NCBI GenBank assembly: GCA_004431415.1
Contig: QPMI01000195.1
Location: 124,001-188,000 of the forward strand
Length of the DNA: 64,000 nucleotides
DNA from: Cyanophora paradoxa CCMP329
Lineage: Eukaryota > Plantae > Glaucophyta
Direction: 5' to 3'
The translations under genes and the position numbers were made by a program. Position 1 is the first letter of the stretch. Each line of letters begins with the position of its first letter. Under the pieces are notes generated by a model. The model searched no databases and was not told the origin of the DNA. It worked only from the letters and a program-made list of their open reading frames with translations. Positions 6,400-36,800 of the stretch are shown here, piece after piece.

Positions 6400-7265
6400 T
6401 ACCAGATAAATGCGTTTTCTGCAAAGACAACGCATTACTTTGGTACCGCTTAATATCAAAACGCTAAGAAACTGCTGTAACCCCCGGCCTTTCAAGTGGT
6501 TGAAGTCGTCACGGCGTGTCATCGGTCGCGGCGGCCGGTGGCCGCGGGCCCGCGGCGACTCACCGCACTCGTCTAAATTCAGTGTCAGCAGTGTCTAATC
6601 GCACTTCGAATTCTATCTACGTATACTTCTCTGCAGTGTCATCACCGTCGGATGTCGAAAAGTGCGCTTTCCAAACCGATGCCCCCATTGCAAGCGTCGA
6701 CGTCGCAACGGCTCGGCGGCCGCGAGCGCGCCGCGGCGGCGCGGACGCCGGCGAGCTCGATATCGGTTGAGCGTTGTCCCCGGAGGGTTGCGGAAGCTGC
6801 CAGCAAAGGGCTCCGCCTCCGCCTCGTCCTCGGCCTCCTTGGTCTCTTTCTCGTCGAGCGCCCGCCGCAGCGACTCGATCACCCACTGGCGCCGCGCCCA
6901 CGCCAGGGCCCGGGAAAAACAAAAGGAGGGCCCGGGAAGAAAAGAGATGGGGCGGGGGGGGCGGGGGCGGGGGGGGGGGGGGGGGGAGCTCGCCGCGGAG
7001 CTGCCGCGTCTGCCCCTTCTGCTAGCGCTTTCCCAGCTCCAAATGCTCCCCCGGAACCTGCCCAGCTCAGCTCAGCTCATGATCAGCGAAGTCGAGCGGA
7101 GGAATAGGCAGCTGCAGGGCAGGGACCTGCGAGCTCCGATGGGATGCAGGTGACGCAGCGCCAGGACTGGCCCACGTACACCTGCCCCGTATCTGAGTAG
7201 CGCCGTCACGTGCACGCCGCCCGCGCATGCCCGGTCCCCGTCAGCGGCCCCGGCGAGCGCTAGCT
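6400..7265 (-). mobile_element. Dispersed repeat copy 1: non-autonomous element with a terminal hairpin and degraded exon fragments
   Basis: Collinear homology with 24262-25045, including the shared GGTACCGCTTAATATCAAAACGCTAAGAAAC and CAGGTGACGCAGCGC.AGGACTGGCCC blocks. Confidence 0.65.
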
Positions 7266-8174
7266 ATCATTTTATAGGTGGATGCACGTCCCCGCTCATA
7301 GCGGTGTGGTTATCATACACGCTTTTCATTTCATGCCTTCCGTGTTCGAATCGCCCTGCGATGAGAATCACGCCTTCGAATCCCGCCCGTTCCACATAAT
7401 TCCGATCGATCATGCCCCACCTTGCCTGTATACGCCCCCACAGTGCTGGAGTAGACTAGAGGCTGTGGCCGGTAATTCACAAAAAAAAAAATAGCAAGCA
7501 CTTATTCTGGATATTCTGGCGTATACATATATACAGGCACGTGCACCCGGCCATGCATATGGCCATGGCATAGCCAGGATAAAAGCATGCGCAGACCGAC
7601 TTTCGAACTGGCCGGCTAAGACAGCGTGACACACAATATTTAATCTGACGGGAGCATGCGCAATCGCAAGGGGTGAATAGCAGCTGACTCCCCCCCCCCC
7701 TCGTCTCCCCCGCCCCCCCCCCCTCCCCCCCCCATCCCCCCTCCCCCTCCCCCTTGCAATCATGGGCGATTCAATAATTTCTTTATTTGCGTAGCCAGCA
7801 CGAAACACATAGCGATTGCAATTGGACTATATATATAGCTAGCTGCAAGCTTTAGGTCAGCGAAAGCGAAAGGGCGAAAACAAGCAGATTTATTTAATTA
7901 TTTGCCATCCATGCGCATGCACGCGCACGTGCATGTGCATGTGTTAGAACTGCAATTCGTGGCCGTCAATGACTCCAAAGATCAAGACGCTTGCAATCAC
8001 CGCGAGCGTGACGATGAGTGACAGCTGCGCGAGACAAAATATGTACAGTGAGAGACCTTAGTTAATTACACGGGGGATAGGTAACGGGTCTTAAACGAGT
8101 TATGTGTAAACGGTGATAATGATTGGGTTTGCGCCTCTAGCTACTTGAAGACAGCAACTGTGATCATCGGTGAT

Positions 8175-9285
8175 CTATGATTTGATCGCGCACCGTCGAA
8201 AAGGATGCAGCTGCCGCAGTTCCGGCGTTCGGCCAGTAAGGTACGAACGTGCTGGCTTCCTGGTACACGAAAGCCTGCCACACGTGCGCAAAAGGAATTT
8301 CAGCTGTACAATTCTATAGCCAGATCTGAAATTTGGTTCCAGTGAACGCAAGGCGCACGTTCCCGAGGACGAAGCTCCGGAAGGCAGGAGTGCCAGTGCC
8401 GCTGTCGCTCTCGATGCGGAGGTTGTAGTTCTTGCCGGCGACGAGCTGGAGCAGGAGGCGCGAGCGCAGCTGGCGGCTGTTCCCGCCCCGGTTCGAGTTG
8501 AGCGGCGGGATCTTGAATCGGATCTCTCTGGTTGACACGATGGCCGGCTGCAAATGAATTCGAATGAGCGTCCGGATATCTTAGCCAAACCAAGCCCAAT
8601 AATTCAACCGAGAAGAGAGAAAAACTATTTGCCTGAATGGCCGCGAGTCTAATTGACGGGTTGTTGGGATCTTCGATGTAGATCTTGATGGGTTCTCCGA
8701 CGGGCAAATTTTCACCAAAAATACTGACGAAGTCGCTTGTGCCGGTCTGCGAGCTCGGGGTGTAAGTAAAAAGTTCGAGATGCCGCATACAATTGCAAGC
8801 AGATCGCACCACGGGAGCATTCACGACGGGCCTGCTGAGCGTCACCTGAACATGACGCACTGCATAAGTGCGCGCTGCTTTTGACGGCAATTATATATAT
8901 CAGGCATGCAGCTATATTGCTAACAACCAACCTTGAAGCTGCCGTCCGGTTGGACTGTGCCGCCCGTGACATTGAAAGTAAAGCCGTTGATGGAGATTTG
9001 CACGAGATTGATGACTGGCTGTCGGGTTTCATTGAGGGTTTAGCCTTAGAGCAATATTGATTGTAACACTCGTGATCATTACCAGGGGAGAGGGCGTCAG
9101 CGGCGGAACAGTCGGTGCAGGCGTCGGAAACTCCGCGGACGGAGTGGGGACGGCCGTCGGGCTCGGAGTCGCCACATTGGAGGGAGAAGCTGCGCGGTAG
9201 CCGAGGAAGTGCTTTTTAGAAGGCATACTATGATTTTGAGTTCAAATAAAAAGCAGGGAGCTCGAGGTGCCGGCGCGCACTTGAG

Positions 9286-9329
<44 letters not shown>

Positions 9330-11826
9330 AGACGGGCTTGGCGATGGAGACGGGCTCGGGGACGGGCTCGGGGACGGGCTAGCCGACTGGTTTAAGTGGG
9401 GCTCGTGATCAATGGCAATATGAATCGTCGATTTCGAGCGAGTCGATGACGGAAAGGCGGGCTTACGGGCGACGGGCTGGGAGAGGGCGTAGGGAAGGCA
9501 AGTGTAACGTTCAAGCGGTGCGCGTAGATATAGTATCCATCCCATGAGGCGTAGAAGATCGGATAGTCGCGCGTTCCCACGTTCGTGAGACCGAATTCGG
9601 GAGTCTCGAGGTTACCTCCCGGCGCAGGTCTGAACATTTGCACGCGCGTCCTCCGGCGGTGAGCTCGAGTACGCATGCATGCGTACGTATATATCTATAT
9701 GCAGCCCCGATAGAAGCGCTATATATGCCATGATGAAAGCAGACGCACGGAATAACAAAATCGATAGCTTCGTCCACCATTTCTGTGCCAGTCGCGTCGA
9801 AAGAACGGATCTTCTCGACATCTGAATATGTGACGGAAGAGACAAGACGCCAGATTTGGGATCTGCCCGACGGTCGAGTTTTTTATTATTCTAATATAAA
9901 CCGTAATCTCAATTGCAATATTAGTTCATTTGCGATCGACGCGCACGTTGATGACGTTGTCTTCACAATTGCGAGTCCTCTGAACATGGAATCCGCAGCA
10001 CCAGGAATTATTGTGAAATTCTGAACTTCCACCGCGCCAGACGAAGGAACTGTCACCTGCGCGAATTCGAAACGGTCACAAGCGCCTTAACATATAGCTT
10101 GCTCCCGCGTTCAATGCCACGATCGCAAGCTTAAGCATACCTTGATGATGCGGCTGGGAAGAGAATCACCCTCAACTTCGGATTGAGTGCGAAACACGCC
10201 CGCGTAGAGCACGTCGTTGCCGTTGGCGTCCTGGTCGATGTCCAACGAAGTGTAGCCTACGTCGTTGTTTCCGGTATTTTCCGACAGCGCCGCGACAAAT
10301 GTTTCACTTCCATCTGGAAAAATGAATCGAATGCGAGATAAATGTGAAATACCGCGCCACCCCGCATTTGCAAAAATATCTGCACCAAGCGAGACGGAGA
10401 AGATTTCCGCGCCAGATTTGCCGGCGAAGTCTGTGCTTGTAAATTGGGACAGATGGCGCCGATCGCTGCAATCACATGCCGTTCGCGTTGCCAGCACGTA
10501 TATCTTGTTGCTGCTTGCGCTGAAAGCCATAGCAAATGGGACAAGTTTGTAGTCGATGTTTTTGGTGTACGGCGCCGAAGATTTGCACGTAGGTTTGTTT
10601 TCTTCAGCCGGGCACTTGCTCTCCCAAATTCGTTTCATGCGGCCAGTCTACGCACGAACCCGAATCAGACTCAGCAAACACCCCGACCCGCTAGATGGAC
10701 GAACCGAAAGATCGAGGTATCCGATGGATTCGGTGTTCCCAGGATTGTCCAAGAAGAACAGACCCGAGCTCGAGTTCGCGGCTAAGTCGTTCACATAGCT
10801 GACGTCGATTGCGCAAGATTCGCGTCAGCTCCACGCATGTGAATTCGATGTACATTTGTCAAACTCTTTATCGTTTGCACCTAAAGAAGACGTCCTCGCC
10901 AACGGCTGCGACCGATTCGCCGAGCGGAACATTCTTGAAAGATGTGCCCCCCTCCGCAGGCGCCATCGGCATTCCAGCCACGAGCTCGGAGCCGCAGGTA
11001 GAGTTGACCCTCCAGATTGCGTATGTAGTGCCGACGTAGAGGTTTCCTGCGAGCCCGCGTTGAGATGTCGTCGGGAAGAATCGGTGTCGGTATCGATATA
11101 TAACTTTACGTCGGTAGTTAACTGTTAGTGAACAACAATATCAAGAATGCGGGGCACCATCATATGCGTTGTAGCGGAGGCCTTCGCGGAAAAACATTGT
11201 GACGAGTCATGACCAGCAGCATATTAAATTTTAATGTGTAATAATTGTGAGCGGGTCTATACTGCAGCGCACTGTTAATATATCCGGTCGAGCCACCCGT
11301 GCCAATTCCTGATCGCGACAGGTGAAGGGGAGCACGTGTAAGTCAACTCGTCATGATCAGTCGCAGTGACATGCATATGTTCACAAGAGTGGGGGCTTCT
11401 TTATGATTTCGAATTCTTAAAACATTCAGCTTTCTTCGCGCGCGGAAGGATCTTTCGGTCTTCTAGATCGATCTATATCTAATTTTGCACGCTTGCAATT
11501 GAGTGATCATAAACCGCCAGACGGCGGCTCGAGAGCCGCGAGCTCGAGACGAACCAGCAAGCGGGACGTCCTGGGGGGGGTCGGAGCCGTCTTGCTTCTT
11601 ATCGCCAAAGCAGAACGTGTAGTTCCCCTGGGCGACATCGTTCCAGGCCGCGCCGACGGGCAGCGAGGGGATGCCCGGCAGGAGGCGGTCCGAAAGCGTC
11701 GCGGTGCTCGCCGCTGGTGTGGAAAGGGGCGCAATCAGTCCGGAGTCGCACTGCCGGGCTCTTCAGCGGGCACGCACCGACAGTCACGGCGACCACAGCC
11801 AGCCAAAGCAAGCCGGGGCGCATCAT
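8175..11826 (-). CDS. Gene B1: multi-exon secreted protein with signal peptide, (Ser-Pro)n linker and C-terminal IPT/TIG-like domain; 3' end approximate
   Basis: MMRPGLLWLAVVAVTVGA signal peptide. Long exon 10140-10800. SP repeat at 9285-9385. YTPSSQTGTSDFVSIFGENLP...AIVSTREIRFKIPP resembles IPT/TIG. Close paralog at 59634-63590. Confidence 0.7.
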
Positions 11827-12583
11827 CGGGATTTGGTGGGGCGTGCGCATCGACTTCGAACCACGTGCACGTCGTTGATGTGCTCCGCTCTTTGAAGTTT
11901 AGGTTTGGCCCTCGCAGACAAGTTCGTGGCAGTGCAAGAGTACTGCCAACTCAGTGCCTTCCGGGTTGTTTGCCGAGTCGGCAGTGACTCGGCACTGAAA
12001 TCACCGGAGTTTTCTTAAATTAAATGCAATTTGAATTGCCGATCATTGCATTTTAATCTAGATCTTAATGGCATCATTGCATACTTAGTAGTAGCGGTCC
12101 TTCATGATCTCTCAGAGTCTACAGCTCGGCACTGGCAGCCCGGCGCCGGGCGGCCCGGGCCATGGCCCATCATGGGATTCATGGCATGGCCCAGTGGCCA
12201 GCGCGCGGACCCGGGAAGGCGCCGGCAGCCGCGCCCCGGGGCCCGCCGGCAGGCCCTGAGGGCATGACAACCGCACTGCGCATGTGGCAAAAATGATTGA
12301 ATATTAATCACCGTGGCACATTGAATCGATCGCGAGCACTGAGTCTACTACTAGGCTATTTAGAATTATCGCGGATGCCAATGATATCGATGTACATGTC
12401 ACCGTTTCTACTGTAGTACTAATAGTTCTGCCGCAGTGCATTAGAACTACGTATACCGTTACTACCGTATACGCGCGCCGTGACTGGCAACTTCGAATTC
12501 AGTCTGTCGGTCCGAGTCACCCGGGGGCCGGGACCGGCAGTCTGTAGGTCGGTACGGTAGCGGTAGGGTGGCCTAGTAGCCTA

Positions 12584-12927
12584 CTGTAATTCGGGTAATA
12601 TTTAAGACCCCAAAATAATTAATAATCCCGGGGTTTGGTCGGTTTAGCAGGCTGAAAATAATTAAGAGATAGCCGCGCGGAGCGCTTTAGTAGCGGCCTT
12701 TCAAGTTTGGAAGGGGGTGGGCGCGCCAGGGGGTCTTGATCTGTTGGAGAGTCCGGAAGCCCCCTCGCACTATAGCTAGCTTCTCCCGCACTGCAACTCT
12801 GGCTGCGCGCGCGGGCTACGTACCCCCCCTCGCACCTCGGTTTAGTATACGATAAAACTTTAGTAGTCAGGCCTCAAAACTTTGGTACTGTAAAGATCCA
12901 GTATACTAAATATTTCCCGGCTTACAG
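12584..12927. mobile_element. Tc1/mariner-type MITE, TA TSD
   Basis: TA|CTGTAATTCGGGTAATATTTAAG ... CTAAATATTTCCCGGCTTACAG|TA. Confidence 0.7.
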
Positions 12928-12986
12928 TATAGCTATTAGCTAGTAGTGGGCCGGGCCTACGCGTAGTAGTCGCGTACACATGCACA

Positions 12987-13211
12987 CTGTAAAACACGAA
13001 ATATCCGGCGGAACTTAATACTCGGCACGTTTCAGTATAGCCTTGTGGAGCCAAATATTTGAAACTGCCGGAATTGTGCACATGTATCGCAAAAGAGGGA
13101 TCGATGTACCCGCCGTCTTGGCGGACTGGCTCCACATTTAATTCATGATCAAGATCGGCGCATTTCTGGGGTTTTGCCGAAATGTCACGCTGGAGATTGC
13201 ATGCTTTACAG
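12987..13211. mobile_element. Second Tc1/mariner-type MITE, degenerate
   Basis: CTGTAAAACACGAAATATCCGGCG ... CGCTGGAGATTGCATGCTTTACAG|TA imperfect TIR. The left flank is CA instead of TA. Confidence 0.5.
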
Positions 13212-13633
13212 TAATACTACATAGTACGGTACATATACGTCGTGTATATAGGCGTCTTGATTCAATGATTGCGTAAATTCCCTCAAGTTAGTGGTCACTG
13301 CCGCTCACTTGTAATCATAAAAGGGAATCAAAAGATTGCTTCGAATTCGATCATTGGATTTGAGATCTAGCTTAGGCCCTTAGGGTCCGTAGTTCTAGAT
13401 CTAGGCTAGACGCCGCTAGAGGCGCCGGGGTGACGCCGTGACGGCGGGGTCCGGTCCCCGTCCGGAATGGCGGCGGAATCCCGGCCCCGGCACTGGGCCA
13501 GCAGACTCCCGGAGACTGGGGCGGAGTCCGGCAAATTAAATATTTGTTCAAATTTGTTTTTTAACTTTCCGCCGGCGGCGCCGCCTGAATGAACGGGGCA
13601 TCCGGCGACAAAGAAACTTGGAACGCCTAACTA

Positions 13634-13935
13634 CTGTAAGTCGGGAAATATTTAGTATACTGGATCTTTATAGTACCAAAGTTTTAATTTGAGGCCCGAC
13701 TAGTAGCGGCGACTACTAAAGTTTTATCGTATACTAAACCTGAGGTGCTGGGGGGGGTACGTAGCGCAGCCGTTGATGCAGCGCGGGAGAATTCGAAGCT
13801 AGCTGTAGTGCGAGGTGGCTCCCGGACGCTCCAACAGATCAAGACCCCCTAGGGCCCTAGCGCCGGCCGCCTTCAAGCGCCTTGTCTGTGTACGTAGCTG
13901 TACATGTCCTGTAGGCTGTAGCTCCTTAATTTTTA
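13634..13935. mobile_element. Inverted, truncated copy of the 12584-12927 MITE
   Basis: 13634-13850 is the diverged reverse complement of ~12730-12927 and starts TA|CTGTAAGTCGGGAAATATTTAG. Second TIR not found. Confidence 0.65.
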
Positions 13936-15402
13936 TAATAGTAATGCACCTAATTGTAACAGTTCCGATCATTTCATTTCATTTCTGCATGTAGATTTCT
14001 AGATCTTTCGCTACGTCATCAGTAAATGGGGGGGTGCGGCCCGTGCGGGGGGGCTTGCCCCCCTGCTTGCAATTGTAATTAATGTAAATTTCAGTCCGCG
14101 CGATTCGAATTCAAGCGCCGCCGGCGCCGGCGCCTTACACGTGCACGGCCCCGGCAGACTCCGGCAAATTAAAAATTCGTTCAAATCTGTTTTTTAACTT
14201 TCCAAGTTTCTTTGTCGCCGGATGCCCCGTTCATTCAGGCGGCGCCGCCGGCGCCACCACTGCGCATGCCACATATAGCGTACGCCGGCGGGACCGGGCG
14301 GGTGCGCGTACTACGGTAACCGCGGCCGACTCGGCAAGCCGCCAACTTGGCAAAGCCGGCATTATGCCATGACCATGCCGGCATATGCATGGCTTAGGAT
14401 GGCTAGCCGCCAACTTGGCAAGTTGCCGGCATACGTATACCTGCCGGCATGAAGGCATGCGCATAGCCTGCGCTGCAGCTGTACTAGTACTGCCGCTACT
14501 ACTGCGGTACTATACGGTCACGGGTACCCGGCTGAAGTTCGGCTTGCGAACAATCATTGAATTGCAAGCCGGCGCCCAGAGTGCACGTGAGATCGAGACA
14601 AGCCCTCGAGCTCCTCCCCGGGCCCGGCCGCGGCCGGGACCATGGCAGGGGGCCAGGGGGGATACCGGTCTGGCATAGTCGGCATGAAGGCTCTGGCTGC
14701 ATCCGGCAGAGCCCGACCGGCGGCCGGCATGTCAAGCCAAAAGCCGGAATTATGGCATCAGGGTCCAAGCCAAGGCACTGCGGCATGTCGGCCGGGCGCC
14801 GGCCCGGCCGCGGCGGCCGGCCGGCATGGCCTATAGCTACAGCCTATAGCTACAAGCAGGGGGGGCTCCGCCCCCTCCCCCCCCCCCCCCCCCCCCCCCG
14901 CACCCCCCCGGCAGCTATGTCGACGTCAGCCGGCTACTAGGCTATGTGCTAGTTGCCATACCGGACGTACCCCCCGTGAAGTAGGGGTGAGATGAATTAA
15001 TGGACCCGCACTAACACCGCGCAAGACGTCGGGCCGGGGGGGCCGGCGCCCCTTCTAGCCCCTGGTATTTTTAGTGCGGCATAATGACCCGGTCCTGGGA
15101 CCCTCGATCACGACTTCCGGGGGAGCCCCTTCCCTCGGAGAGGGGGGAAAGAAGCGAGCAAGCGAGCCGGCGACGCCGGATTCGTGCACTACGCTAGCGC
15201 TCCCGGCTGCGCTAGTAGCGCGCTTGCAGCCGGCAGCGGGCGAGCTGGTGCGGCGGTGGGGCGAGATCAAATCGGGAGCGACTCGCCATGGGGGGGTACA
15301 GCCAGCCGCTGGCGCGGGGGCCCCGGCGGGCGCCCTTAAAGAGATCCCGGGAGCGGCTCGAGGGTCGGGGATGGCAGAGGGGCGCACGGGAACGCCCGTG
15401 GG

Positions 15403-16137
15403 ATGTTCTCCGTGGTGACAGACACCTACGAGAGGGCCGAGTTCCAGGGGCCCTACGGGTGGACGGGCCTGGTCGTGCTCCGCACGGACGCGGGGCCGAG
15501 CGTCTGCGTACCCGAGCTCAGGCGCCTCATCGCGTTCACGGGGGGCGACGCGCGCCTCGGGGAGACCTTTGGGGTCCCGACGCGGCCGCTGCGGGATGAG
15601 AACACGATCCTCCTCCTGGAGCACCTCGCCGCCCTCCCCCGCAAGCACTACGACGCGCAGGAGCGCCCGCCGCACGTCCTCGCGCTGCGCTACGTCGAGA
15701 CGGTCATAGGCAACTCGTGGGAGCGCTCGCAGGACGCGCGCATGCCCCGGGCGGCGGCGGAGCTCTATGCGGCGCTCGAGAGGAGAAAGCAGGGCGCCTT
15801 GCAGCGGCTCGAGATGCAGTTGATTCGGACCGCCGGCGATCGGCTCCTGGCCGTCCGCGCGCGGCGGATCGAGACGCCGGAGCTGCAGTGGTGGATCCCG
15901 CTCGCGAGCCTCGCCGAGGCGGCGTACGGCGACTCGCGCAGCACGAACTGCGTGCGCCAGGAGATCGTCAGGAAGCACCCCGACCTCGCGGTGGGCGGGC
16001 CGCACCGGTTCGAGGCGAGCACGCGGACGGTGGGGCGCGACGTGGCGACGTACCGCTCCGCGCGCCGCTGGGCGTTTATCAGCGCGCTGGGGTGCGAAAA
16101 GGTGCTGGCGGGGCTGCTGGCTCGCCGCCGAGTTTAA
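15403..16137 (+). CDS. 244-aa ORF with a Bro-N/KilA-N-like DNA-binding region; probably the N-terminus of the downstream protease-recombinase gene
   Basis: Strong GC3 coding bias. WWIPLASLAEAAYG...IVRKHP...WAFISALGCEKVL resembles the Bro-N pattern. Same reading frame as the downstream gene, separated only by TAA at 16135-16137. Confidence 0.6.
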   Translation: MFSVVTDTYERAEFQGPYGWTGLVVLRTDAGPSVCVPELRRLIAFTGGDARLGETFGVPTRPLRDENTILLLEHLAALPRKHYDAQERPPHVLALRYVETVIGNSWERSQDARMPRAAAELYAALERRKQGALQRLEMQLIRTAGDRLLAVRARRIETPELQWWIPLASLAEAAYGDSRSTNCVRQEIVRKHPDLAVGGPHRFEASTRTVGRDVATYRSARRWAFISALGCEKVLAGLLARRRV

Positions 16138-18557
16138 ACGAGCGCGGACGACCCCGCGACGCTCGACTCGGCCCCGTCGCTGCCGCTCGCCCCAACCCCG
16201 CGCGTCTCCATCTTCGGACGCAAGACCTGGCTAAAGGTGAGCGGGGCCTCGGGGCGGTGGGGGGTAGGGAGGCGGGGAGGGGGGGGGAGGGGGGGGGTAC
16301 CGACCAGGCCGCAGGACGCCGAGATCGCCAACGTCCTCTCGCTCCTGCTCCTCCGGGCGCACGCGGGGGACAAGGTCAGGGCGCTGTACCCCATGCACGT
16401 CGAGATTCTCGCCTCGCTCCTCCGGCGGTACGCGCGCGCCGACGAGGCCAGGCGCGCGTGGGGAGCCCTTGGCGCAGCGGAGAGGGGCGCCTGCGTCCTC
16501 TGCCCCGTCAGCGTGGGCAACCTGCGGCGCGGCGGGGAGCGCACAAAGGGATGGGCCTCGGGCGGCCACTGGACCCTCCTCGCCGTCGACGGGAGCGCAA
16601 AGCGCGTGGGGTACTGGGACTCGCTCGGCGCGGACCCCGAGCCGAAGCTGCAGCACGCGGCGATGGCGGCCTTTCCGCGCTTCCCGTTCGTCGTCCAGAC
16701 GGGCGGCCGCCTGCAGGTGGGGGACGGGTATCAGTGTGCGCCCGCCCGCCCGCCTCCCCTGGCCCCCTCCCCCGCGCGCCCGCGCCCCCCTTCACCTCAC
16801 CGACGCCGCCGCCGCCACAGGCGGGCCGTGGACCCTCTGGTTCGCCGAGGTGAAGACGCAAGAGGTGCTCACGGGCTTCCCCTAGTCCGACGAGATCGAG
16901 CCTCGGAGAGTGGTTGCCTCTCGTACGTGTACCCTGGCGAGGCGATCTCGTCGGCGATCGCGGCGGAGAACGGGCGGTTCATCGCGGAGAAGCGCGAGGC
17001 GTACCGGACGATGCTGGAGAGCGGCGTCGTCGACCAGGCCGTGGCGCTCTTCGACGAAGACTCGCTGCCGGACGCGGAGCGCGTCGTCCTCCCCGCCGTC
17101 CCCGCCACGGCCGCCGCGGCCGCCGCCGCCGCCACCACCACCAAGTCCGTTCGAAAGGCCGGCAAGGCCGCGGCCGCGGCGGCGGCGGGGGGGCCCTCCA
17201 TCACCGTCCTCTCCTCGTCCTCGTCCTCGCCGTCCTCCGAGGACGGGGAAGAATCCGAGGGGCGCGCCGACGGGGACGGGGCCGACGCGCCGGCGGGGAC
17301 AGAGGAGGCCCTCGCCGAAGAGGTGCACGAAGATGGGGAGCCGGGGGCCGAGCGGCTCGCGCCCTACGCCCTGCGCGAGTCGGAAATGTCACGGGAGCTG
17401 AGGAACCAGCTCGCGGCGTTTCAGACGTGGCGCACCTCGGCCCTCAACCCCGACCGCCAGGGCGGCGCCGCCGAGCGCTCGACGGTCCTCGTCAACGACG
17501 TCGGCACGATCTTCCGCCTGCTGGGGTACGTCAAGGAGCGCGAGAGGGTCGGGCCGCTCACGATGGACCTCTTCGCGCGCACCGATTTCGTGGAGATCTA
17601 CGTCCGCTTCCTCGGCTACCTCCGCTCCGAGCGCAGGCTCGCGGCCGGCACCCTCGCGGGGTACACGCAGAGCGTGATGCAGGCCTACGCGTTCGTTCAC
17701 AGCCGAACCGCCGGGGCCGAGGCGGGGGCCGATCGAGAGGGTCCGCACGCCCGCCCGCTCCGAAACCTGAAGACGCAGTTGGAGAAGGAGAAGAAGCAGC
17801 AGCGGGGGTGGAAGAAGCGCGGACCGAACTGGGTCTCGTTCGAGGCCGTCCTCTCGGCGCGGCGCGAGGCCCTCGAGGCGTTCGAGGCGGCGCCGCTCGA
17901 GCGGGACAGGGCCCTCGCCCTCCGCGAGGCCGTGCTCATCGGGTTCCTGAGCATCACGCCGGCCCGCGTGGGGGTCGTGCGGCGCCTGCAGATCGGTCAG
18001 ACGCTGCGGCGCGACGGCGGCGCGTGGGCGATCTCGCTCACCGAGATGCGGCACGAGACGGGGGAGCTGGTGTCGAAGACGGCCAAGTCGCACGGCGCGA
18101 TCACGGTCCCCATCGCCGGCCCGCTCCAGGCCCCCTTCGAGACCTACGTGGAGCGCTACCGGGCGCGCCGACGAGGGCTGGCTCTTCGCCTCGAGCAACG
18201 GCACCTGCCTCTCGGAGAGCGGGTGGGCCGTCTTCGTGCGCAGGGTGATGCTCAAGTACGTGGGCCTCCCGATCACTGCGAAGACGATGCGGGCGATCAT
18301 CACGACGCACGTGCGGGAGCAGGCGGCCGCGAACCTGATCGAGAACGAGACGGCGGCGGCCGTCGTCGAGGGGGTCGCCCGCCTCCTCGCCCACACGCCC
18401 CAGACGGCGACCCTGCACTACGATTACGGGGCGCGCCAGCGCTCGGCGGCGAGCGCCGTGGCCTACCTCGAGCGCCTCGCCCTCCAGCACGAGGCGCGGT
18501 CCAGAGGTTCGGCGTCGAGCCCCGCGGGCCTCCCGGGCGCCTCGTCGTCGTCGCCGC
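16138..18557 (+). pseudogene. Ulp1/SENP-like (peptidase C48) domain fused to a tyrosine recombinase; disrupted
   Basis: Removing GT-AG introns 16237-16314 and 16736-16820 yields WLKDAEIANVL...HWTLLAVD...YWDSLG...LQVGDGYQCGPW (His-Asp-Gln-Cys). YR motifs follow: ITPAR, SKTAK, WLF..NG, AKTMR, LLAHT..TATLHY. Frame breaks near 16880 and 18165. Confidence 0.8.
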
Positions 18558-21500
18558 TTTTTTTGCAAAAGTGGACGTCGCATTGATACACCACGGCACA
18601 TGTATCAATGTTCTACGTGACGTGCCCTTCCGACCGGTCATCTATCTAGCCGAGGGTGCTAGCTAGGTGCCGGCCATGGGTCGCTCAATATGGGAGGTTC
18701 GCCTGAGTGGGGGAGCCATGGTTTTCGGTGATAGCCGTAACCAGACCCACGCGCCCACCCCTTGATCAACTCCTCCATCCCTCATGAGCCCTGGAAGTGA
18801 AATGTCTCGCAGTCCGCCGCCCTCCCTTGCCGCCGCTCCGCCACGCCTCCTCCTCCCCACTCCGCCTCCTCCCTCCTCCTCACCTGCGCCCCAGGACCCC
18901 GATTAATCGGTGTCCCGTTTTGTCGAGGTGAAGAAGGTGGTAGGAGGAAGAAATGAGGAAGGAGAGGGAGTGGGCGGAGGCAGCAGCTTGGGGCGGGCAG
19001 CGGATGCGGGGCAAGGCAGGGAGAGGTGCCGGGACAGCAGTGTGGAGTGAGCGTGGGCATTGGCAGGCGGCGCAGAGAGCTGGGAGTGCGGAGACGAGGC
19101 GGGCCGCGAGGGGTCGGGAGGGGTCGACCGGGTTAGAGGGGGGGGGCGAGGCCAGGGGGGTGGCCGAAGCCATGGGGTTGGCCGAAGCCAGAGGGGTGGC
19201 CGAAGCCGATGGGGTGGCCGAAGCCAAAGGGGGGGCCGAGGCCATTGGGGGGGCCGAAGCCATAGGGGTGGCCGGAGCCAGCGGGGGGTCTGACACTTGA
19301 GGGCCGGTTGGGGTCGGGGGGGAGACCGTAGGGGGCCGAGGGGCAGCGTCTGGCGAGGTCCCGAGCAGGGGGGTCAGCTGAAGCGAGGGGGGGGAGGGGG
19401 AGTTGGCTGCTTGCAGCGTCGTAAGTGGTTTGTACACTCCGGGTGCAAAGAGGGACGTGATTGTGGGTTGCCCCGTGGGTATCGGCACCGTTCGCGCTTT
19501 TTTGGTCATGCGCCTGGGAGTCTTGCGGCCGGTTGCCTTTCTTTTTTCCGTAGGTACTGGCCGGGCGGGTGTAGAGGCGGGAGGGGGAGGGGTCGCGGGG
19601 CGCGGGCATATGGGTGCCGGGGCGGAGGGGGTATCGGCTGTCCGTTTACGTGAGGCAGGCGACGGGCGTGTTCGTTTTGGGGGAGGGGCCAGGGGGGGCC
19701 CCGGAGCGGGGCGTTTGGAGGGTTGGGTAGTGTTCGTAGGACCCGCGGGCGAAGCGGGCAGGATGCCAGTGTCGGAGTTCTCGTGTGACTGTCGTGCTGG
19801 GGGTACCGCAGGTGGGGAGGCAGGGCAGGAGGTGATCTCAGGGCGGGCGGGGCATTTTCCCCGTCTGGCGTCGGAGTGGGCCTGGAGGGCAGATGCAGAG
19901 GCGAACCGAGTGCCGCAGGTGCAGGAGAAGTCAGACGTCCCGGCGGCGGGTCCTGCATCGGGCAGCTGGGGGAGGGGGGGCCTGGGTGAGGGGGCGACGG
20001 GGAGTCGTGCAATTGCTTGGCGGAAGTTTTCCAAGAGAATCCATGGTTGGCCTTCCGAGCCCAAGTCGCAGCAGAAGTCGGTGATGGAGATGGTATCATG
20101 GAGGGAGGGGGCGGGGGAGGGCGGGGGGAGGGGGGACTGGGCGGCTGCACTAGAGGCGAGCGGGAGGGTTTGGAGTCTGCATGTTTGCGGTACCGACGTT
20201 TGGTTCTGTCATTGATGCCGTGTCGGAGCTCCCAGGCGTGGTTGCGGGCGCAGCGGTCTCTCCAGATCGCACGGAGGTGTTGGTCGAGGAGCAGCGCTAG
20301 GTCTTTTTGGATTGACGATGAGGTGGTCTTGTTGATGCCCAGAGCTGTGCAGAGGGCAGGCAGTCCTGCCGGGGTACCGAGGCGCAGGAGAGCGAGGGCG
20401 GGGAAGGGAAGCATGTCAGCCAGGGCCGGGCTGAGTTTTTTCCATAGTGTATCGGCGAGGCCGGGGGGGCGGAAGAGAGCCGGATTTGCGGTGGGGGAGA
20501 GAAGGGCGGAATGGAGGGGAGAGGCGGGGTCAGGAGAAACGAGGCGGAGGAAGGGGAAGAGTTGAAAGATGGTATCGTCGTGGCCTAGTGGTTTGGGCGA
20601 GTGGCGGAGAACCCGGGTACGGAGGAAAGTCACGAGTGCGTCCTGGAAAGCTTGGAGAAGGAGGCGAGCGGCGGGGCAAGTGAATATGTGGACGAAGTCT
20701 TCGGGGGGGTGGGTTGTGGGGTCGGGCGGTCCGGGGTCTGCGGCCACCGGTGGGGGAAGGGGCGAGGGGAGCCCGGGGGGTGCATGTGGCAGGGGCGGGG
20801 AGGGGGGGGTGGGAAGCAGCATCTTCGGGATGGGGGCAGGGGTGGGAGGGAGGTGACAGAAGGGCAGTGGGCGGTGCCGTCGGGGAAGAGAGGGCCGTAG
20901 AGGTCAGGGTCGTGGAGGAGGCGGATGGTGAGGAGGGAAGGCTTCCAAGCATGCATTGGAATCTGACTTTGCGGAGGTGGTCGCCTGTGGGGGTGCGGCG
21001 GTCCGGTGGCTTGTCGGACACTAGGGAGAGGGCTGGAGCGAGGGTAACATGGGGGTTGCTGAGGATGGCCCCCGCGTTGCGAAGTTGGCGCCAGTCAAGG
21101 TATTGGGAGAGGGAGGCTTCGGCTAGGAAGTGAGGGCGGGGGTCCCCCTCGACGCGGTACGCATGGAGTCTGCCTCGGTAGGGCTCGGCCCCGGGGACTG
21201 GGCCGTGGGATAGTGGGGGCGGGAGGCCAACACGGATGAGGAAGCATTTGAAACTGTGGGGAATGAAAAGAAGGGCGGAGAGAGGGGCGTCGGGGGCTGT
21301 TTTAGCAAGCTTGTCAACGGCGTCATTGTGGCGGTTGTCAGGGGTGTAGGCTGGGTTCGGGATACGATTCTTAGCCGGGGTGCGGGCCGCCTCTTTCTGT
21401 GCGGCTGTTTTGGATGTTTTGGCGGACCGTGGTTGTGGCAGGGTGGCTTCACGGTGAGCGGCTTCAGTTAGGATGGACGCCGCTTCGAGTGGGGTAGCGT

Positions 21501-22006
21501 GGGACGGCCGGAAGAGACGGCGCGCTGTGGCGGAGGCTTCGTTGCGAGCCAGGTCGGCGAGCTGAGAGGCGAGTTCTTGGGCGTAGCGGGCGCCGGGAGG
21601 GAGGGGGGTGGCGGGCCCTTCGGGGCGGGGCGGGGGAGACTCAAGCACAGTTGGGGAGCGCGGGAGGGCTGGATGGTTGGGAGAGGATGGTGGGGAGTCG
21701 AGGGTAGGGAGGGTGCCGCCGGTGGAGACTGGGGGGCGGCGCGGCGGATGGGTACGCCCGGGGAAGGTCGGCGGGGGCCGGAGGGCCGGGAGGGTTGGGC
21801 TGCAGCATAGGGGGTCAAGGGTGACGGACCCGTAGCAGAGGCTGAGGGCAATATATTCACGGTATCTGCGGAGCGCTGCAGCGTCGGCCTGAATGTAGGC
21901 TGGGGGGCGGGGCAGGTCCGACGGGGTAAGTGCTGAGGAGCGACTGAGTAGGTCAGCTGTGAGGAGGAGGAGTGGACCGCAGGCCGTGCTGTTTGGGGGC
22001 TGGAAA
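18558..22006 (-). mobile_element. 5'-truncated non-LTR retrotransposon (L1/Tx1-like, with RNase H remnant)
   Basis: 17-bp TSD CTCGTCGTCGTCGCCGC at 18541-18557 and 22007-22023. T7 at 18558-18564 is a poly(A) on the minus strand. ORF2 C-terminal motifs: HNDAVDKLAK (RNase H), MLGSLP, EDFVHIFTCP and AIWRDRC. Frameshifted. Confidence 0.85.
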
Positions 22007-23143
22007 CTCGTCGTCGTCGCCGCCCCCCCCGCCGCCGCTGCCGCCACCGCCGCCCTCCCTCCCCCTGGAGGCCCTTCCCCCGCGCAGCACCCTCCTCCTC
22101 TTCCTCCTCCTCGCGATCCGCGCGCGCAGAGGGCCCGGCGCCGTCGCCCACCGTTGCCGCGCGGCCGTCCCGCGGCGCGGCCGCCGGGGAGAAGGAGAGC
22201 GGGGCGAGGGCCGGGCCGGGGAGCGCCGGGAGCTCGGGGTCGGGCCGGGCCGCCCAGGAGAGCACCGAGACGAGTTCGGGGTCGCAAGAGGAGGAGGCGG
22301 AAGAGGAGGAGGAGGAGGAGGAGGAAGAGGAGGAGGGGGAGGAGAGCGGGTCGTCCGCCGAGCGGCCCCGGAAACCGAAGCGCTTCCACTGGCAGCGGCG
22401 CCGCCTCGACCCGGGGGACCAGATGGAGCTGGACCTCGCCCGGGGCGAGGGCCGCTACTGCGAGACCTGCAAGCGGGTAAGGAACTCCCCACCCGCGACC
22501 CCCCAAGCACGCGTGCCGCGCACCCTCACCGACTGTAGATCTTCCAGACGGCTCCGGCGGGAGCTGTTCCGGCGGGGCGAGCCGCACGCGGGCGAGGCGG
22601 GGAGGGGGCGCGGGGCACGGGCGAGGGCACGGGCGGGGTGCGGGGTCGTCCGCGGCCCTCCCCGCCCCCGTGCACGTCGCGCAGCCGGCTTCCGAGGGGC
22701 CCCCGCCTCCAACCTGGCACCTTCGGTGGGTCAGCGCGAGCCCGTACCCCCCCGGGCAGGTCGCGGCGGCGATGGCGACGCACTCGACGGACCCGCTCCC
22801 GCGGACGGTCTTTGCTCGGCTCGTCCAGACCGTGCGCCTCCCCAGCGGCAAGTTCGAGTCCCGCTGGGTCGTGCTGCGGCGCTTCGGGGCCTTCTGGACG
22901 CCGGGCTCCGAGGGCAGCGGGCGCGAGTGGAGGGGGGTACGGGCGCTCGCGCCCGTCGACTACGACGCGAGAAACGGGAGCGTGGACATCAGGACGCCCG
23001 CCGCTCGCATCTCCGACCTCCTCGGGCTCGGCTCCGGCACGCGGGCGCCGTCGCCGCCGCCTCCGCGGTCCGGGGAGGGAGCCTGGGGCGAGGGAGGGGC
23101 CTTTCGGCCGCGGGGCCGGCCCCGGAAGCGCCCGGGTACCTGA
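22007..23143 (+). pseudogene. C-terminal part of the YR gene: Pro/Ser-rich linker, poly-Glu tract, CxxC motif, terminal AT-hook
   Basis: Continues SSSSP across the TSD, then EEEAEEEEEEEEEEEEGEE and YCETCKR, followed by a GTAAG...TAG intron at 22477-22538. The last exon ends FRPRGRPRKRPGT-stop at 23143. Needs at least one frame correction. Confidence 0.6.
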
Positions 23144-24261
23144 CTCGGGGGGTCGGTTCGGGTCCCAGCGCCCCAGGCTTGCGGACGCAGCCGGCGCGGT
23201 GCGCACCATCGGATCCGCCGTGCTCGAAAGGGGCGGGCAAAACTTCAACGGGGTCCTGGGGCGAAGGTCGGCTCCGGAGGGGGGGGGGTACGGGTACTTT
23301 GTGCGCACCCCCACGGCGTGCCGCACATCGTTCGATCGGGAATGACAAGGAGAGTGCGGAGAGGCGGTCGGCGGGCCTCGGGGGCGCCGGTGTCGAGGGG
23401 TAGATTGAAAAAACTGCGCGGGGCCGGTCTCGGGACGGGATGGGCGGCAGCGCGGGGCCGGAGGGGCGAGCTTAAAGCGCACCGACGGTGCTGGGCACAA
23501 CCGGAGCGCCCCGACCCGCGATCGGGCGCGGTCGGGGCGACCCGCGGGGCGCCTGGGTCGGGGGAGGCGGCTGCGACTCCTGCGAGCCAGGTCAGAGCGT
23601 AGCGGTGTGGAATCGGTGCTGAAATCGCACGCGGGCACGCCTCGTCCTCGGGAACGCGTGGGGAGCAGTCGGATGGCGCGGTCGAGCGGGCTGCGACGGA
23701 TCGAGGAGCACGTGGGCGCGAGGGAAGAGCGATCGGGATGGATCGGGGCGCCAGGCGCCGTCGGCCGCTCGCTGTGCGCCGATCGGTGCGCTCGGGGGTT
23801 GGGGCGCCGGGAACAGCACGTTCGAAGCACTTGAATGTGGACGACCAGGCCCGCTGCGTCCGCAGCAAACACGAATCTTTGCGCGAGAGCTCCCGGGGGT
23901 ACGCGGCAGCGGGCGGGGTACAAGGGGATAGTGCTCTGGGGATGCCCGGTCCGCCTGTAGTGTGCGTAAAGCTTAAGGCTGACGAACCCACAAAGTACGA
24001 TTGGCCGGCCGTCGAGGCACCTCGGAGCCGAGCCGTCACGAGGTCCGCGCAGCCGCACGCCCGGACGTGCTCTATCGCCCCCGATCCGCCGCGCATCGTT
24101 GAACGGTCCGCCAGGGGACCGCCTCGACCGCCTGCGCGGCTCCGCCTCGCCGCGGCGGTTATCGTTGCGAGGTGAGCGGCGCGGGATGCTAGTTAACTTA
24201 CTTAGTAAAACACTTAAGCAATGCGCGCATGCGCACTAGTACTGAATGCGGTATAACTCTG

Positions 24262-25045
24262 TACCAGATTAATGCGTTTTCTGCAACGAAAACGCATTAA
24301 TTTGGTACCGCTTAATATCAAAACGCTAAGAAACCGCTGTAACCCCCTGCCTTTCAAGTGCGTGTTATCGGCCGCGGCGGCCGTGGCCACGGGCCCATGG
24401 CGACTCACCGCAATCGTCCGAATCATCAGTGTCAACGGTGTCTAATCGCTCTTCTATCTACTAGGCTACTTATACTTCGGCCCCCACCCCCGGTTGCGAG
24501 CGTGGCCCCCGGAGGATACGGAAGCTGCCAGCAAGCTTTAGTGCCACGCGCCCGGCCTGGACAAGTAGAGATGTATCCCCCCTCTGTCTCTGACGAAGGG
24601 CCGAGGGGAGCGGGGGGTGGCACGCGGGGGGCCCACCGGCTCCACCTCCGCCTCGTCCTCGGCATCGGCCTCGAGCTCCTCGGTCTCCTTTGCGTCGAGT
24701 GCCCGCGCAGCGACTCGATCACCGACTGGTGCCGCGCCCACGTCAGGGAAAAAAGAAGGGGGGGGAAGAAGGGAAGGGGGGGGGGGAAAGGACCTCGCGG
24801 TCCGCGAGCTCGCCGCGGAGCTGCGCATGCCGCGCCTGTGCCTTCAGCTTCCCGAGCTCCACCTGTACCCCCCGGGCCCGGCCCGGCCCCGCTCAGCTCG
24901 AGGCCGAGCGGAGGAGGCGGCGGGGTGGGGACCTGCGAGGCGGTGCAGGTGACGCAGCGCAAGGACTGGCCCGCCTGACCCGCGTCCGACGAGCGCCGCC
25001 GCGCCGCCCGCGCCTGCCAGGGCGCCGGCCCCCGTCAGCGCTCGT
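24262..25045 (-). mobile_element. Dispersed repeat copy 2 (homolog of 6400-7265)
   Basis: Collinear similarity, and a 21-bp-stem hairpin GTACCAGATTAATGCGTTTTC-tgcaac-GAAAACGCATTAATTTGGTAC at its left end. Confidence 0.65.
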
Positions 25046-35100: not shown

Positions 35101-36800
35101 GGCTTCTCGTCCGGCGGCTTGTCGGACGTCGGGGGGTCCATCGCGCCTGTGCTGAACGCCGTCTGACGCACCGCGACGGCGGCTCCACTGGTCGTGTTGC
35201 CGTCTGCAGCTGTTGCGTGTTTGTCTCGCCATTGCTTGACTAGCAGTCGCAAGTCGGCGATGTGGACGCGCGCCGCCTCGGCGTCAGTGTCGGTGCGGTT
35301 GGCCATCAACGTGGACCATTTGTCGAGAGCCTTGTCGAGCTCGACGACCTCCTCGGCTGTCAGCGGGGTGGGGTCCTCCTCGACGTCGTCGAGGTTGGTG
35401 CGCGTGAAACACGACGGCCACGTCTGGCGCGCGACGCGTCGGAAGTGCTTGGGGCCGACTCGTCGCGTGACAACGACGGGTTTGGCTGCCTGAAGGATTC
35501 GACGGGCGGCCGCGCGGCGCTGGTCGTTGGTCCATGTTGACGACGGGCCCGCAGGGAAGGGGGTCGCGTCGGGAGTGAAATCGCCCTCCGGCCAGCGGCC
35601 GAACTCCGCGTAGCCGACGATGGTGCCCTCGGCGAGTTTGAGAGGTTTGCGGGAGGGGTTGCAGATGTGGACGGTGAGGTGGCGGACTGTGCGGGAGGCG
35701 TGGCGCCAGAGTTGAGCGGGGGTTGTGAAGGAGGGGGGGAGGAAGGGCGTCTCGTCGCCCTGCAAGATCACTGACGAGTCTGGCGGCGGGCCACCGTCGT
35801 ACTCCGGTGCCGCCGTGATGCGAACTTCATCTTTGTCCACAGGGAGCAAGCCGTGCATGTCGGGCACGTAGCCGCGTACCATGGCTTCGCCTCGGTGGAC
35901 GGTGGTGGGACGTAGTAAGCGGACCGGAAGGGCCCCTCCCTCTCGGTCCGAAGCTGAAAAGGGACGAAGTGGAGTTCTTGGTCGTCAGGCGATGTGACGT
36001 GCATGCCCCACTTCTCCGGGGCGCAGCTGATCTGGGCCCGGAGCGCGATGAGCGTCGAGAGTCCCAGGAGCATCTTGACGTCCCCCATCGAGTTCGCCGT
36101 CGTGACGACGAGCGTACGCGCGATGCGTACGGGCCCGATCTGCAGCACCACGTGCGCGGTCCGTCCGTACGTCGTGATGTTGGTCTGGAACCCGACCAAC
36201 GGGACGCGCTCGTCGAGGTACCGGAAGCCCGGGAGGTGCTCCACGACGTCGGCGCTCGCCACGTCCAGCTCCGCCCTATATCTGCACTTTTGGAGTATTG
36301 CAATACTTGGTCGACAGAATCAGTCGATCGACAGAATCAGTCGATCGACTGATTCTGCGCCAGAATCGGTCGACCGAATCAGTCGAATTTTATCGACTGA
36401 TTCTGCGCCAGAATCGGTCGACAAAATCAGTCGATCGACAGAATCAGTCGATCGACTGATTCTGCGACAGAATCGGTCGACCGAATCAGTCGAATTTTAT
36501 CGACTGATTCTGCGCCAGAATCGGTCGACAAAATCAGTCGATCGACAGAATCAGTCGATCGACTGATTTTGCGCCAGAATCGGTCGACCGAATCAGTCGA
36601 ATTTTATCGACTGATTCTGCGCCAGAATCGGTCGACAAAATCAGTCGATCGACAGAATCAGTCGATCGACTGATTTTGCGCCAGAATCGGTCGACCGAAT
36701 CAGTCGAATTTTATCGACTGATTCTGTCGCAGATTCTGTCGAAGGTATTGCAATACTCCAAAAGTGCAGATATACCGCCCCGGAGTCGATCAAGATCTGC
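32150..36800 (-). pseudogene. pol: pol: aspartic protease, reverse transcriptase, RNase H; disrupted
   Basis: ILIDSGAELDV (after removing the MITE) and MLLGLS. RT motifs FPLPRIDD, DATSGFWQL, TPFGVMNGPS, YVDD. RNase H motifs TTDWS, ERNY, HTDHEPL, DALTR. Ends at GYEIVDGVVRR before any integrase core. Frameshift near 35890. Confidence 0.92.
36277..36774. mobile_element. 498-bp MITE with 30-bp TIR and 6-bp TSD (IS3EU-like termini)
   Basis: CCGCCC|TATATCTGCACTTTTGGAGTATTGCAATAC ... GTATTGCAATACTCCAAAAGTGCAGATATA|CCGCCC. The interior is made of GAATCAGTCGATCGAC/GAATCGGTCGAC repeats. Confidence 0.9.

What the first reader, a model, noticed from the sequence alone, without database searches (positions are those of the whole stretch)
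14947..24194. Crypton-like element encoding a Bro-N-like + Ulp1/SENP protease + tyrosine recombinase + AT-hook protein
Seen: after removing the LINE (exact 17-bp TSD) and three GT-AG introns, one plus-strand gene carries a C48-type protease motif set (WLKD, HW, DS, QC). It also has a core-binding region and the YR catalytic motifs R...K...KxxR...H...Y, then poly-Glu, YCETCKR and a terminal PRGRPRK AT-hook. Established: Cryptons are intron-containing YR DNA transposons without RT, and Ulp1-like proteases are known cargo of Mutator/Kaonashi, CACTA and Zisupton elements. Inference: a deSUMOylase-like domain fused to the recombinase, with a virus-type Bro-N-like domain, is an architecture I do not recognise. 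It may define a new YR transposon group that counters SUMO-dependent silencing or processes its own polyprotein.
Basis: partly seen in the sequence, partly recalled or inferred. Interest (0 to 1): 0.88.

Follow-up and report, generated by a model that had tools for sequence, protein, structure and literature searches.

The report
Virophage-like recombinase transposon carrying a protease
This is a broken copy of a multi-copy mobile element in a glaucophyte alga, whose single gene joins a predicted winged-helix DNA-binding domain, a ubiquitin/SUMO-type protease domain and a tyrosine recombinase most similar, among those I could compare, to virophage recombinases, so it likely marks an unnamed group of DNA transposons.

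Summary
The element is real; this copy is dead. The 17-bp duplication around the inserted retroelement, three GT-AG introns, the CE-clan (C48) protease, the core-binding plus tyrosine recombinase (YR) domains and the AT-hook are confirmed. The spliced frame is not open: two nonsense codons and four net frameshifts remain. Intact-looking 1,250-1,500-aa relatives exist in the same genome, labelled Cyanophora paradoxa, in several subfamilies (41-99% YR identity). The N-terminal domain folds best as a Dachshund/SKI winged helix; Bro-N is a weaker match. A YR transposon with a C48 peptidase is already published for oomycete Cryptons, so that pairing is not new. What I did not find in print is the lineage. 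About 290 mostly environmental proteins share the YR, the one I folded also starts with a Dachshund-like domain, and the family aligns with OLV11-like virophage/Polinton-like virus recombinases (HHalign 98.9%). Crypton YRs could not be compared directly. The protease's substrate and role are untested.

The parts
14947..14954 (+). left 8-bp direct repeat TGCTAGTT (could be 7 bp plus a shared T)
   Evidence: the laid part of sibling contigs starts at 14954 in runs X1 and X2 (table 3: place 14989, 36 letters from the end)
14955..24186 (+). element body, 9,232 bp with the insert and 5,766 bp without; no terminal inverted repeat
15412..15726 (+). predicted Dachshund/SKI-type winged-helix domain (start codon at 15403)
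   Evidence: model pLDDT mostly 73-83 over residues 11-120; VIA Z 9.2, rmsd 2.8, 94 of 99 residues to 1l8r; Foldseek TMt 0.71
15793..16134 (+). second conserved N-terminal domain, fold unresolved; carries an 18-residue deletion in this copy
   Evidence: conserved in Cyanophora copies; pLDDT under 50; weak profile match (15%) to the N-domain of environmental relatives
16135..16137 (+). in-frame TAA in a deleted stretch
16228..17030 (+). CE-clan (C48/Ulp1-like) protease over three exons: W 16228, His 16567, Asp 16618, Cys split 16735/16821; disrupted by TAG 16883-16885 and a frameshift near 16905
16237..16314 (+). intron 1 (78 nt, phase 0)
16736..16820 (+). intron 2 (85 nt, inside the Cys codon)
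17350..18500 (+). core-binding domain plus tyrosine recombinase catalytic domain (R 17965, nucleophile Y 18419); frameshifting deletion near 18162
18541..18557 (+). left copy of the 17-bp target duplication
18558..22006 (-). inserted high-copy, likely 5'-truncated non-LTR retroelement (passenger, not part of the YR element's design)
   Evidence: no profile hit
22007..22023 (+). right copy of the 17-bp target duplication
22456..22560 (+). C2H2-like zinc finger across intron 3, broken by a frameshift in this copy
   Evidence: (zf-C2H2_jaz E 0.04 in P0003, P0005)
22477..22538 (+). intron 3 (62 nt, phase 0)
22712..23030 (+). conserved C-terminal domain of unknown fold
   Evidence: conserved in 7 Cyanophora models; no meaningful PDB sequence match; not folded
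23108..23128 (+). AT-hook-like PRGRPRK; stop at 23141-23143
   Evidence: sequence; RGRP kept in P0002, P0004, P0005, P0007, P0008
24187..24194 (+). right 8-bp direct repeat TGCTAGTT
   Evidence: sibling contigs leave the window sequence after 24186 in 4 of 4 runs

Best explanation
This is a decayed copy of a multi-copy, single-gene mobile element of Cyanophora that likely moves as a Crypton-like DNA transposon, using a tyrosine recombinase predicted to belong with the OLV11-like recombinases of virophages and Polinton-like viruses. Shown: domain order (winged helix, second domain, CE-clan protease, core-binding plus YR, zinc finger, unknown domain, AT-hook), catalytic residues, copy number, ends and lesions. 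Inferred mechanism: the YR binds both ends, recombines across the short direct repeat to release a circle, and integrates it at a site with a short matching or copied core. The winged helix, zinc finger and AT-hook would act as end- or chromatin-binding arms. The tethered protease most likely removes a ubiquitin-like modifier (SUMO, ubiquitin or NEDD8) from chromatin or repair proteins at the recombination site, or from the recombinase itself. It is an accessory, since most environmental relatives lack it. This copy may have been moved in trans after it was broken.
For: Copies: 9 hits among 7,994 candidates, all EukProt gene models on different contigs or loci, 55-100% identical. More divergent ones at 45% appear. 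The source labels read Cyanophora paradoxa. P0002, P0004 and P0007 are colinear over all domains. Ends: left; right; in X5 a contig runs through 24186 into the other flank and this copy's junction has no cover. YR fold: the relative P0014, pLDDT above 85 over most of residues 1-590, matches XerA Z 12.9 and Cre Z 12.2, and its N-domain matches Dachshund Z 9.4. Viral link: 55 of 114 viral ORFs carrying the search motif score E<1e-5 against the family profile, 14 of 114 with the motif masked. 8 of the 14 loci whose neighbours I scanned have Sputnik-type capsid or A32 ATPase genes. HHalign gives 98.9% over 245 columns for the family and 94.4% over 198 for Cyanophora alone, against E 0.001 for the best PDB recombinase. 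No RT, capsid or second gene lies between the ends apart from the insert. Protease. Only 2 of 141 other proteins scanned carry it.
Against: No circle, empty site or excision was observed. The roughly three sibling copies share one 287-bp continuation past 24186, so they may be one insertion later duplicated, or the true element may be longer than this copy. Their left flank was not read, so a duplicated core is seen for one insertion only. The viral set was chosen with a motif picked for resembling this family, and the viral profile does not detect single Cyanophora proteins (P0002 E 19, the other seven listed not hit). No Crypton YR sequence could be scored the same way. P0002 and its kin are predicted gene models, and such models can hide lesions, as P0001 does for this locus. 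Some environmental relatives sit in virus-like neighbourhoods.
Confidence: 0.72

Rival explanations
1. It is a divergent member of the oomycete-type protease-bearing Cryptons (CryptonF-2_PS or CryptonS), so only the host is new.
For: Those elements encode YR plus a C48 peptidase, have short terminal direct repeats and are 2.5-6 kb long (PMC3212892 passages and supplement 1). This element is 5.8 kb without the insert.
Against: No GCR1_C domain in P0002, P0004 or P0007 at E<=1. The termini are not TATGG. The Crypton-derived structures Ndc10 (Z 6.9) and QRICH1 (Z 5.0) score well below Xer/Cre, though they are degenerate. No oomycete-named protein among listed hits, but most hits are unnamed.
Confidence: 0.12
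2. It is the integrase gene of a larger virus-like or linear element (Polinton-like virus, virophage or endogenous giant virus), and this locus is a stranded fragment.
For: The YR is related to virophage/PLV enzymes. Relatives in L042 lie beside protelomerase, helicase and DnaJ genes. In L009 a relative lies inside a 4,485-bp perfect inverted repeat holding part of a primase-like gene. Siblings continue 287 bp past 24186. Giant-virus Ulp1-like proteases are the top viral fold matches.
Against: Three spliceosomal introns. A direct repeat at both points where siblings diverge. No viral gene beside the locus. Four scans of viral contigs with family members found no relative (these need near-exact peptides). 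Family and viral YRs form separate groups in the tree.
Confidence: 0.1
3. The transposon is as described, but the protease works mainly in cis, cutting the polyprotein to free the recombinase, as adenovirus and ASFV CE-clan proteases cut at Gly-Gly (recalled).
For: CE-clan viral proteases appear among fold matches. A Gly-Gly lies in the acidic linker between protease and YR in 4 of 7 divergent copies.
Against: That linker is low-complexity, and the two environmental fusions lack the site. The best sequence matches are ubiquitin-like-modifier proteases. Relatives without protease keep their winged-helix domain attached to the YR.
Confidence: 0.15
4. A domesticated host gene family, with this locus a pseudogene.
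For: Catalytic residues and all domains are kept across subfamilies 41-60% identical.
Against: Near-identical dispersed siblings with different flanks and a junction missing from one run; many broken or chimeric copies (P0009, P0010, P0011).
Confidence: 0.04

Closest known systems
Cryptons, especially CryptonF-2_PS and protease-bearing CryptonS (Kojima and Jurka 2011, PMC3212892; passages, section 5 and supplement 1 seen, Figure 1 not seen)
   Same: Single-YR DNA element without RT or long terminal repeats, short terminal direct repeats, similar size, C48 peptidase cargo.
   Different: No GCR1_C domain, no TATGG ends. The repeat is 7-8 bp and appears to differ between insertions, whereas the supplement lists one fixed 5-9-bp sequence per family. 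The protease lies upstream of the YR in one ORF (a separate protein in CryptonS; the layout in CryptonF-2_PS not seen). Dachshund/SKI-like N-domain. YR aligns with virophage/PLV enzymes.
OLV11-like tyrosine recombinases of virophages and Polinton-like viruses (Yutin et al. 2015, PMC4642659; passages and two supplement entries seen)
   Same: Profile alignment over core-binding end and catalytic domain, shared P.R, KT...YG, LR, H and Y motifs. Some YR-encoding PLVs have 7-23-bp flanking repeats (PMC12220804 section 10).
   Different: The viral enzymes are 300-440-aa stand-alone proteins in capsid-encoding genomes. Here the YR is in a 1,300-aa intron-containing multidomain protein with no virion genes, and the two sets are separate groups in the tree.
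Kaonashi MULEs with C48 domains (PMC6117577, passages seen); Zisupton and CACTA protease cargo (recalled)
   Same: A transposon carrying a Ulp1-like peptidase of unknown role.
   Different: Those move by DDE transposases. The review doubts that Kaonashi proteases act on SUMO.
Starships (PMC11162782, passages seen)
   Same: YR-mobilised eukaryotic elements with direct repeats at the ends.
   Different: Starships are giant cargo carriers with DUF3435 captains; this element is 5.8 kb with one gene and no DUF3435 hit at E<=1.

Membership tests
Crypton (broad: YR DNA transposon) | YR with intact catalytic residues as the only recombinase | tested here: met
   R, K, K-x-x-R, H, Y conserved
Crypton (broad: YR DNA transposon) | no RT of its own, no long direct or inverted terminal repeats | tested here: met
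   the retroelement is an insert with its own duplication
Crypton (broad: YR DNA transposon) | [quoted passage not shown] | tested here: met
   8-bp repeat at the points where siblings diverge; one insertion only
Crypton (broad: YR DNA transposon) | dispersed multiple copies with different flanks | tested here: inconclusive
   many gene models on different contigs; two different right flanks; no genome held for flank comparison
Crypton (broad: YR DNA transposon) | circular intermediate and empty site | not testable with these tools
   only assembled contigs could be laid; none showed a circle junction among the rows displayed
CryptonF | C-terminal GCR1_C domain | tested here: not met
   no such Pfam match at E<=1 in P0001-P0008
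CryptonS | TATGG or TTACTG-type termini | tested here: not met
   termini are TGCTAGTT against the list
CryptonA/CryptonI | no C-terminal domain, DUF3504-type YR | tested here: not met
   zinc finger, conserved domain and AT-hook follow the YR; no DUF3504 at E<=1
any named Crypton group | YR clusters with that group in a tree | not tested
   no Crypton YR sequence was available from the tools; Ndc10 and QRICH1 structures score low but are degenerate proxies
OLV11-like YR | significant profile similarity to virophage/PLV recombinases | tested here: met
   the OLV11 label for the fetched viral ORFs rests on motifs seen and on neighbours, not on a direct alignment to OLV11
Polinton-like virus / virophage | capsid proteins and packaging ATPase inside the element | tested here: not met
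   no other long ORF or Pfam hit between 14955 and 24186
DIRS/Ngaro/VIPER | RT-RNase H with split or inverted terminal repeats | tested here: not met
Peptidase C48 / CE clan | His-Asp-Cys triad and CE fold | tested here: met
   single sequences stay below the Pfam cut-off (14-17 bits against 20.7)
SUMO-specific protease (Ulp1/SENP) | SUMO selectivity | not testable with these tools
   best matches are bacterial CE proteases solved with SUMO or ubiquitin
Bro-N | Bro-N profile or best fold match | tested here: inconclusive
   no Pfam match; one Bro-N model at rank 48 in BFVD, TMt 0.53, below Dachshund TMt 0.71

The most novel reading that the evidence does not exclude
An unnamed superfamily-level group of eukaryotic DNA transposons, independent of Cryptons and Starships, built from a virophage/PLV-type recombinase with a Dachshund/SKI winged-helix arm and exchangeable chromatin modules (chromodomain, zinc finger, AT-hook). 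It spans glaucophyte, green algal and many uncultured genomes, still occurs in linear virus-like elements in some hosts, and in one branch carries a tethered CE-clan protease that strips ubiquitin-like silencing marks at its own sites.
Probability: 0.4. Interest if true: 0.85.

Novelty: new variant of a known kind. Interest (0 to 1): 0.68.

Why it matters
Eukaryotic YR DNA transposons are few and their origin is open: Kojima and Jurka could not tell whether the Crypton groups share an origin. A capsid-less, intron-bearing element whose recombinase aligns with virophage/PLV enzymes would give a traceable link between these viruses and transposons, and a second independent pairing of YR with a C48 protease. 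Intact-looking copies in a cultured alga make two questions testable: how such a YR excises and leaves a variable short repeat, and what transposon-borne Ulp1-like proteases cut. The latter is still unsettled for Kaonashi. The YR may also be a new short-core integrase for genome tools.

Tried and rejected
No whole genome is held, so flanks of other gene models could not be read. The ESM Atlas gave no answer in 8 tries. Scans of viral contigs with family members found no relative; one more did not complete. P0045 found no metagenome locus, so its DNA context is unknown. Prokaryote genomes gave 1 weak hit of 94 stretches on a 5.7-kb MAG contig. No RNA holder listed. Runs guessed to be RNA cover parts of the gene at low depth, but DNA runs give the same alignment start at the intron 1 acceptor, so this shows neither splicing nor expression. 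The siblings' continuation past 24186 is not elsewhere in the window, so a simple insertion into the right end is not shown. A fourth intron at 22726-22759 was considered and dropped: the frame reads through and matches P0002. The two N-terminal domains are not detectable repeats of each other (HHalign 0.1%). No inverted repeat over 5 bp flanks the core in a putative circle junction. No Crypton-related Pfam family is among the 25 shown of 36 matched by 67 relatives; 11 were not shown. The two protease-bearing clades join with SH-aLRT 83 in one quick tree of 30 rows, but are unresolved with 65 rows (careful search unfinished) or with viral rows. A single origin of the fusion is therefore not shown. 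The A1 profile search returned only 7 Cyanophora models among 7,990 candidates. Paper searches listed no description of this family; Repbase and subscription journals were not searchable, and the OLV11 alignment (a pptx supplement) could not be read. Three look-ups of earlier findings were empty.
Full report
Observation. The locus is a GC-rich (about 72%) island in a repeat-rich eukaryotic window. A 3.45-kb insert at 18558-22006 is bounded by an exact 17-bp duplication and starts with a T7 tract. It is far deeper than its surroundings in DNA runs but has no Pfam or PDB match, so I call it a likely 5'-truncated non-LTR element on anatomy alone. Aligning the closest full-length relative, P0002, to the window places three GT-AG introns at 16237-16314, 16736-16820 and 22477-22538. 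The spliced, insert-free reading is not open: stops fall at codons 245 and 440 and the homologous frame shifts four times. This copy is a pseudogene. Its own gene model P0001 hides the lesions by skipping them.

A family in one genome. A search with the YR region gave 9 proteins among 7,994 candidates, all EukProt models, 55-100% identical over the match. A full scan of cluster representatives added more divergent ones among 169 hits. The source labels read Cyanophora paradoxa. YR identities between the models I compared run from 41% to 100%, in at least four groups. P0002, P0004 and P0007 are colinear across all domains in one predicted polypeptide. These are predicted models; I could not read their DNA, as no genome is held.

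Ends. Contigs of near-identical siblings (for example 8 differences in 659 bases) match from 14954 on the left. On the right they leave the window sequence after 24186 in 4 of 4 runs. The other path starts with different bases, so the repeat is not a fixed part of the element. That path is 3-4 times deeper than this copy's junction and runs on for 287 shared bases: the siblings are either one insertion later duplicated or a longer form. Run X5 has the sibling path and no cover of this copy's junction, a hint of polymorphism, since contigs show presence and not absence. One X1 contig crosses the retroelement junction and is 20 bases longer than the window over 18059-18586. Siblings may therefore carry the insert but lack the 18162 deletion, which would mean a broken element was still being moved.

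Domains. The family profile matches 24 PDB sequences, all CE-clan proteases, best E 2e-6. Fold searches agree, and the triad is conserved. The nearest solved relatives are bacterial enzymes crystallised with SUMO or ubiquitin, so specificity is open. Residues 4-108 match the Dachshund winged helix (Z 9.2, rmsd 2.8, 94 of 99 residues) and SKI; a Bro-N model is a weaker match. The YR part of the P0001 model was poor (mean pLDDT 47.8), so I folded an environmental relative, P0014, with 67 rows. It matches XerA (Z 12.9), Cre (12.2) and, at its N-terminus, Dachshund again (9.4); Ndc10 scores 6.9 and QRICH1 5.0. The shared N-terminal fold is structural: sequence profiles of the two N-domains do not align convincingly. 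Catalytic R, K, R, H and Y are kept in 119-128 of 128 sequences, with Lys in the usual His-x-x-Arg position in 106.

Wider family. A profile search gave 293 proteins at E<=1e-5 among 7,992 candidates, nearly all unnamed environmental sequences; one relative is labelled Botryococcus braunii. Only 2 of the 141 other proteins scanned, P0045 and P0085, carry the protease before the YR (E-values for a 155-sequence set). Both have a C-terminal chromodomain match (above Pfam's cut-off in P0085 only). The protease is thus an accessory in a minority branch. Whether the two protease-bearing clades are sisters is unresolved. Among 63 metagenome loci, several hold two YR genes in opposite orientation. L009 has a 4,485-bp perfect inverted repeat ending at the YR start, and L042 has protelomerase, helicase and DnaJ neighbours. 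Some relatives may live in linear or virus-like elements.

Origin of the recombinase. Two OLV11-like proteins in the supplement of PMC4642659 showed the same motif series by eye. I pulled 121 viral loci with a short motif pattern. Of 114 ORFs with the motif, 55 score E<1e-5 against the family profile, best 1.8e-17, and 14 still do so with the motif masked (database size set to one million). Of the 14 loci whose neighbours I scanned, 4 have Sputnik-type capsid genes and 4 an A32 ATPase. Profile-profile alignment gives 98.9% over 245 columns for the family and 94.4% over 198 columns for the Cyanophora copies alone. The viral profile was built from 48 ORFs picked by length and by score to the family, and it does not detect single Cyanophora proteins. 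The tree separates viral and family sequences, has no outgroup and is confounded by composition. So relatedness is supported, direction is unknown, and Crypton YRs were not scored.

Mechanism. By analogy with the model proposed for Cryptons and for YR-bearing PLVs (PMC3212892 and PMC4642659, passages), I infer excision as a circle by recombination across the short repeat, then reintegration. No circle was seen. The protease most likely cleaves after the di-glycine of a ubiquitin-like modifier, since it keeps the WLxD motif recalled from Ulp1/SENP enzymes. Being tethered to a DNA-binding recombinase, it would act locally. Self-processing is a lesser option. All of this is inference.

Prior art and verdict. 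CryptonF-2_PS and some CryptonS elements already pair a YR with a C48 peptidase, and C48 cargo is known in Kaonashi MULEs. The element fails the group-specific features of CryptonF, S and A/I that I could test, but meets the broad Crypton description. Ten paper searches listed nothing on this family; Repbase could not be searched, and an entry there would lower the novelty. I rate it a new variant of a known kind: a Crypton-like element of an apparently unnamed, virophage-related YR lineage. Interest 0.68.

Noticed in passing
L009 2976-20562; also L018, L022, L030, L032, L036, L041, L047: Environmental relatives often come as two YR genes in opposite orientation. L009 has a 4,485-bp 100% inverted repeat that ends at the YR start codons and holds part of a primase-like ORF; L030 and L036 end in short perfect inverted repeats. 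Could be a linear element, an invertible segment or an assembly effect.
   Followed up: partly
L042 2887-18400: A YR relative in an intron-poor gene cluster with protelomerase (Pfam E 4.7e-15), DEAD helicase and DnaJ and, by eye, HNH, SET, RING and a separate cysteine-protease-like ORF: a giant-virus-like or hairpin-ended element.
   Followed up: partly
window 32400-43279 (-): RT-RNase H pol ORF (Pfam E 3.8e-28) preceded by a 2,212-aa ORF with no Pfam match at E<=0.5; 481-bp near-identical repeats at 43679-44159 and 45209-45689. An LTR retrotransposon with an unusually large first ORF.
   Followed up: no
window 48365-54300: Tandem array of about 139-bp units, about 80% GC.
   Followed up: no
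window 7635-11852 and 59094-63616: Two 85-88% identical copies of a multi-exon gene region with Pro-Ser repeats on the minus strand.
   Followed up: no
window 12723-14253: Nested inverted repeats (12728-12929 with 13632-13850; 13570-13623 with 14200-14253), MITE-like, just left of the element.
   Followed up: no
window 24262-24972 and 6400-7173: The right flank of the element is itself a dispersed repeat, 82-96% like 6400-7173 in three pieces.
   Followed up: partly
P0007 residues 1407-1480: One family member ends in a GIY-YIG nuclease domain (E 4.6e-7); may be a real addition or a fused gene model.
   Followed up: no
P0045, P0085, P0059, L062 11177-12232: Chromodomain matches after the YR in several relatives, suggesting chromatin-targeted integration.
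   Followed up: partly
P0009, P0010: Chimeric gene models in which fragments of the element are joined to EF-hand or WD40 host genes.
   Followed up: no
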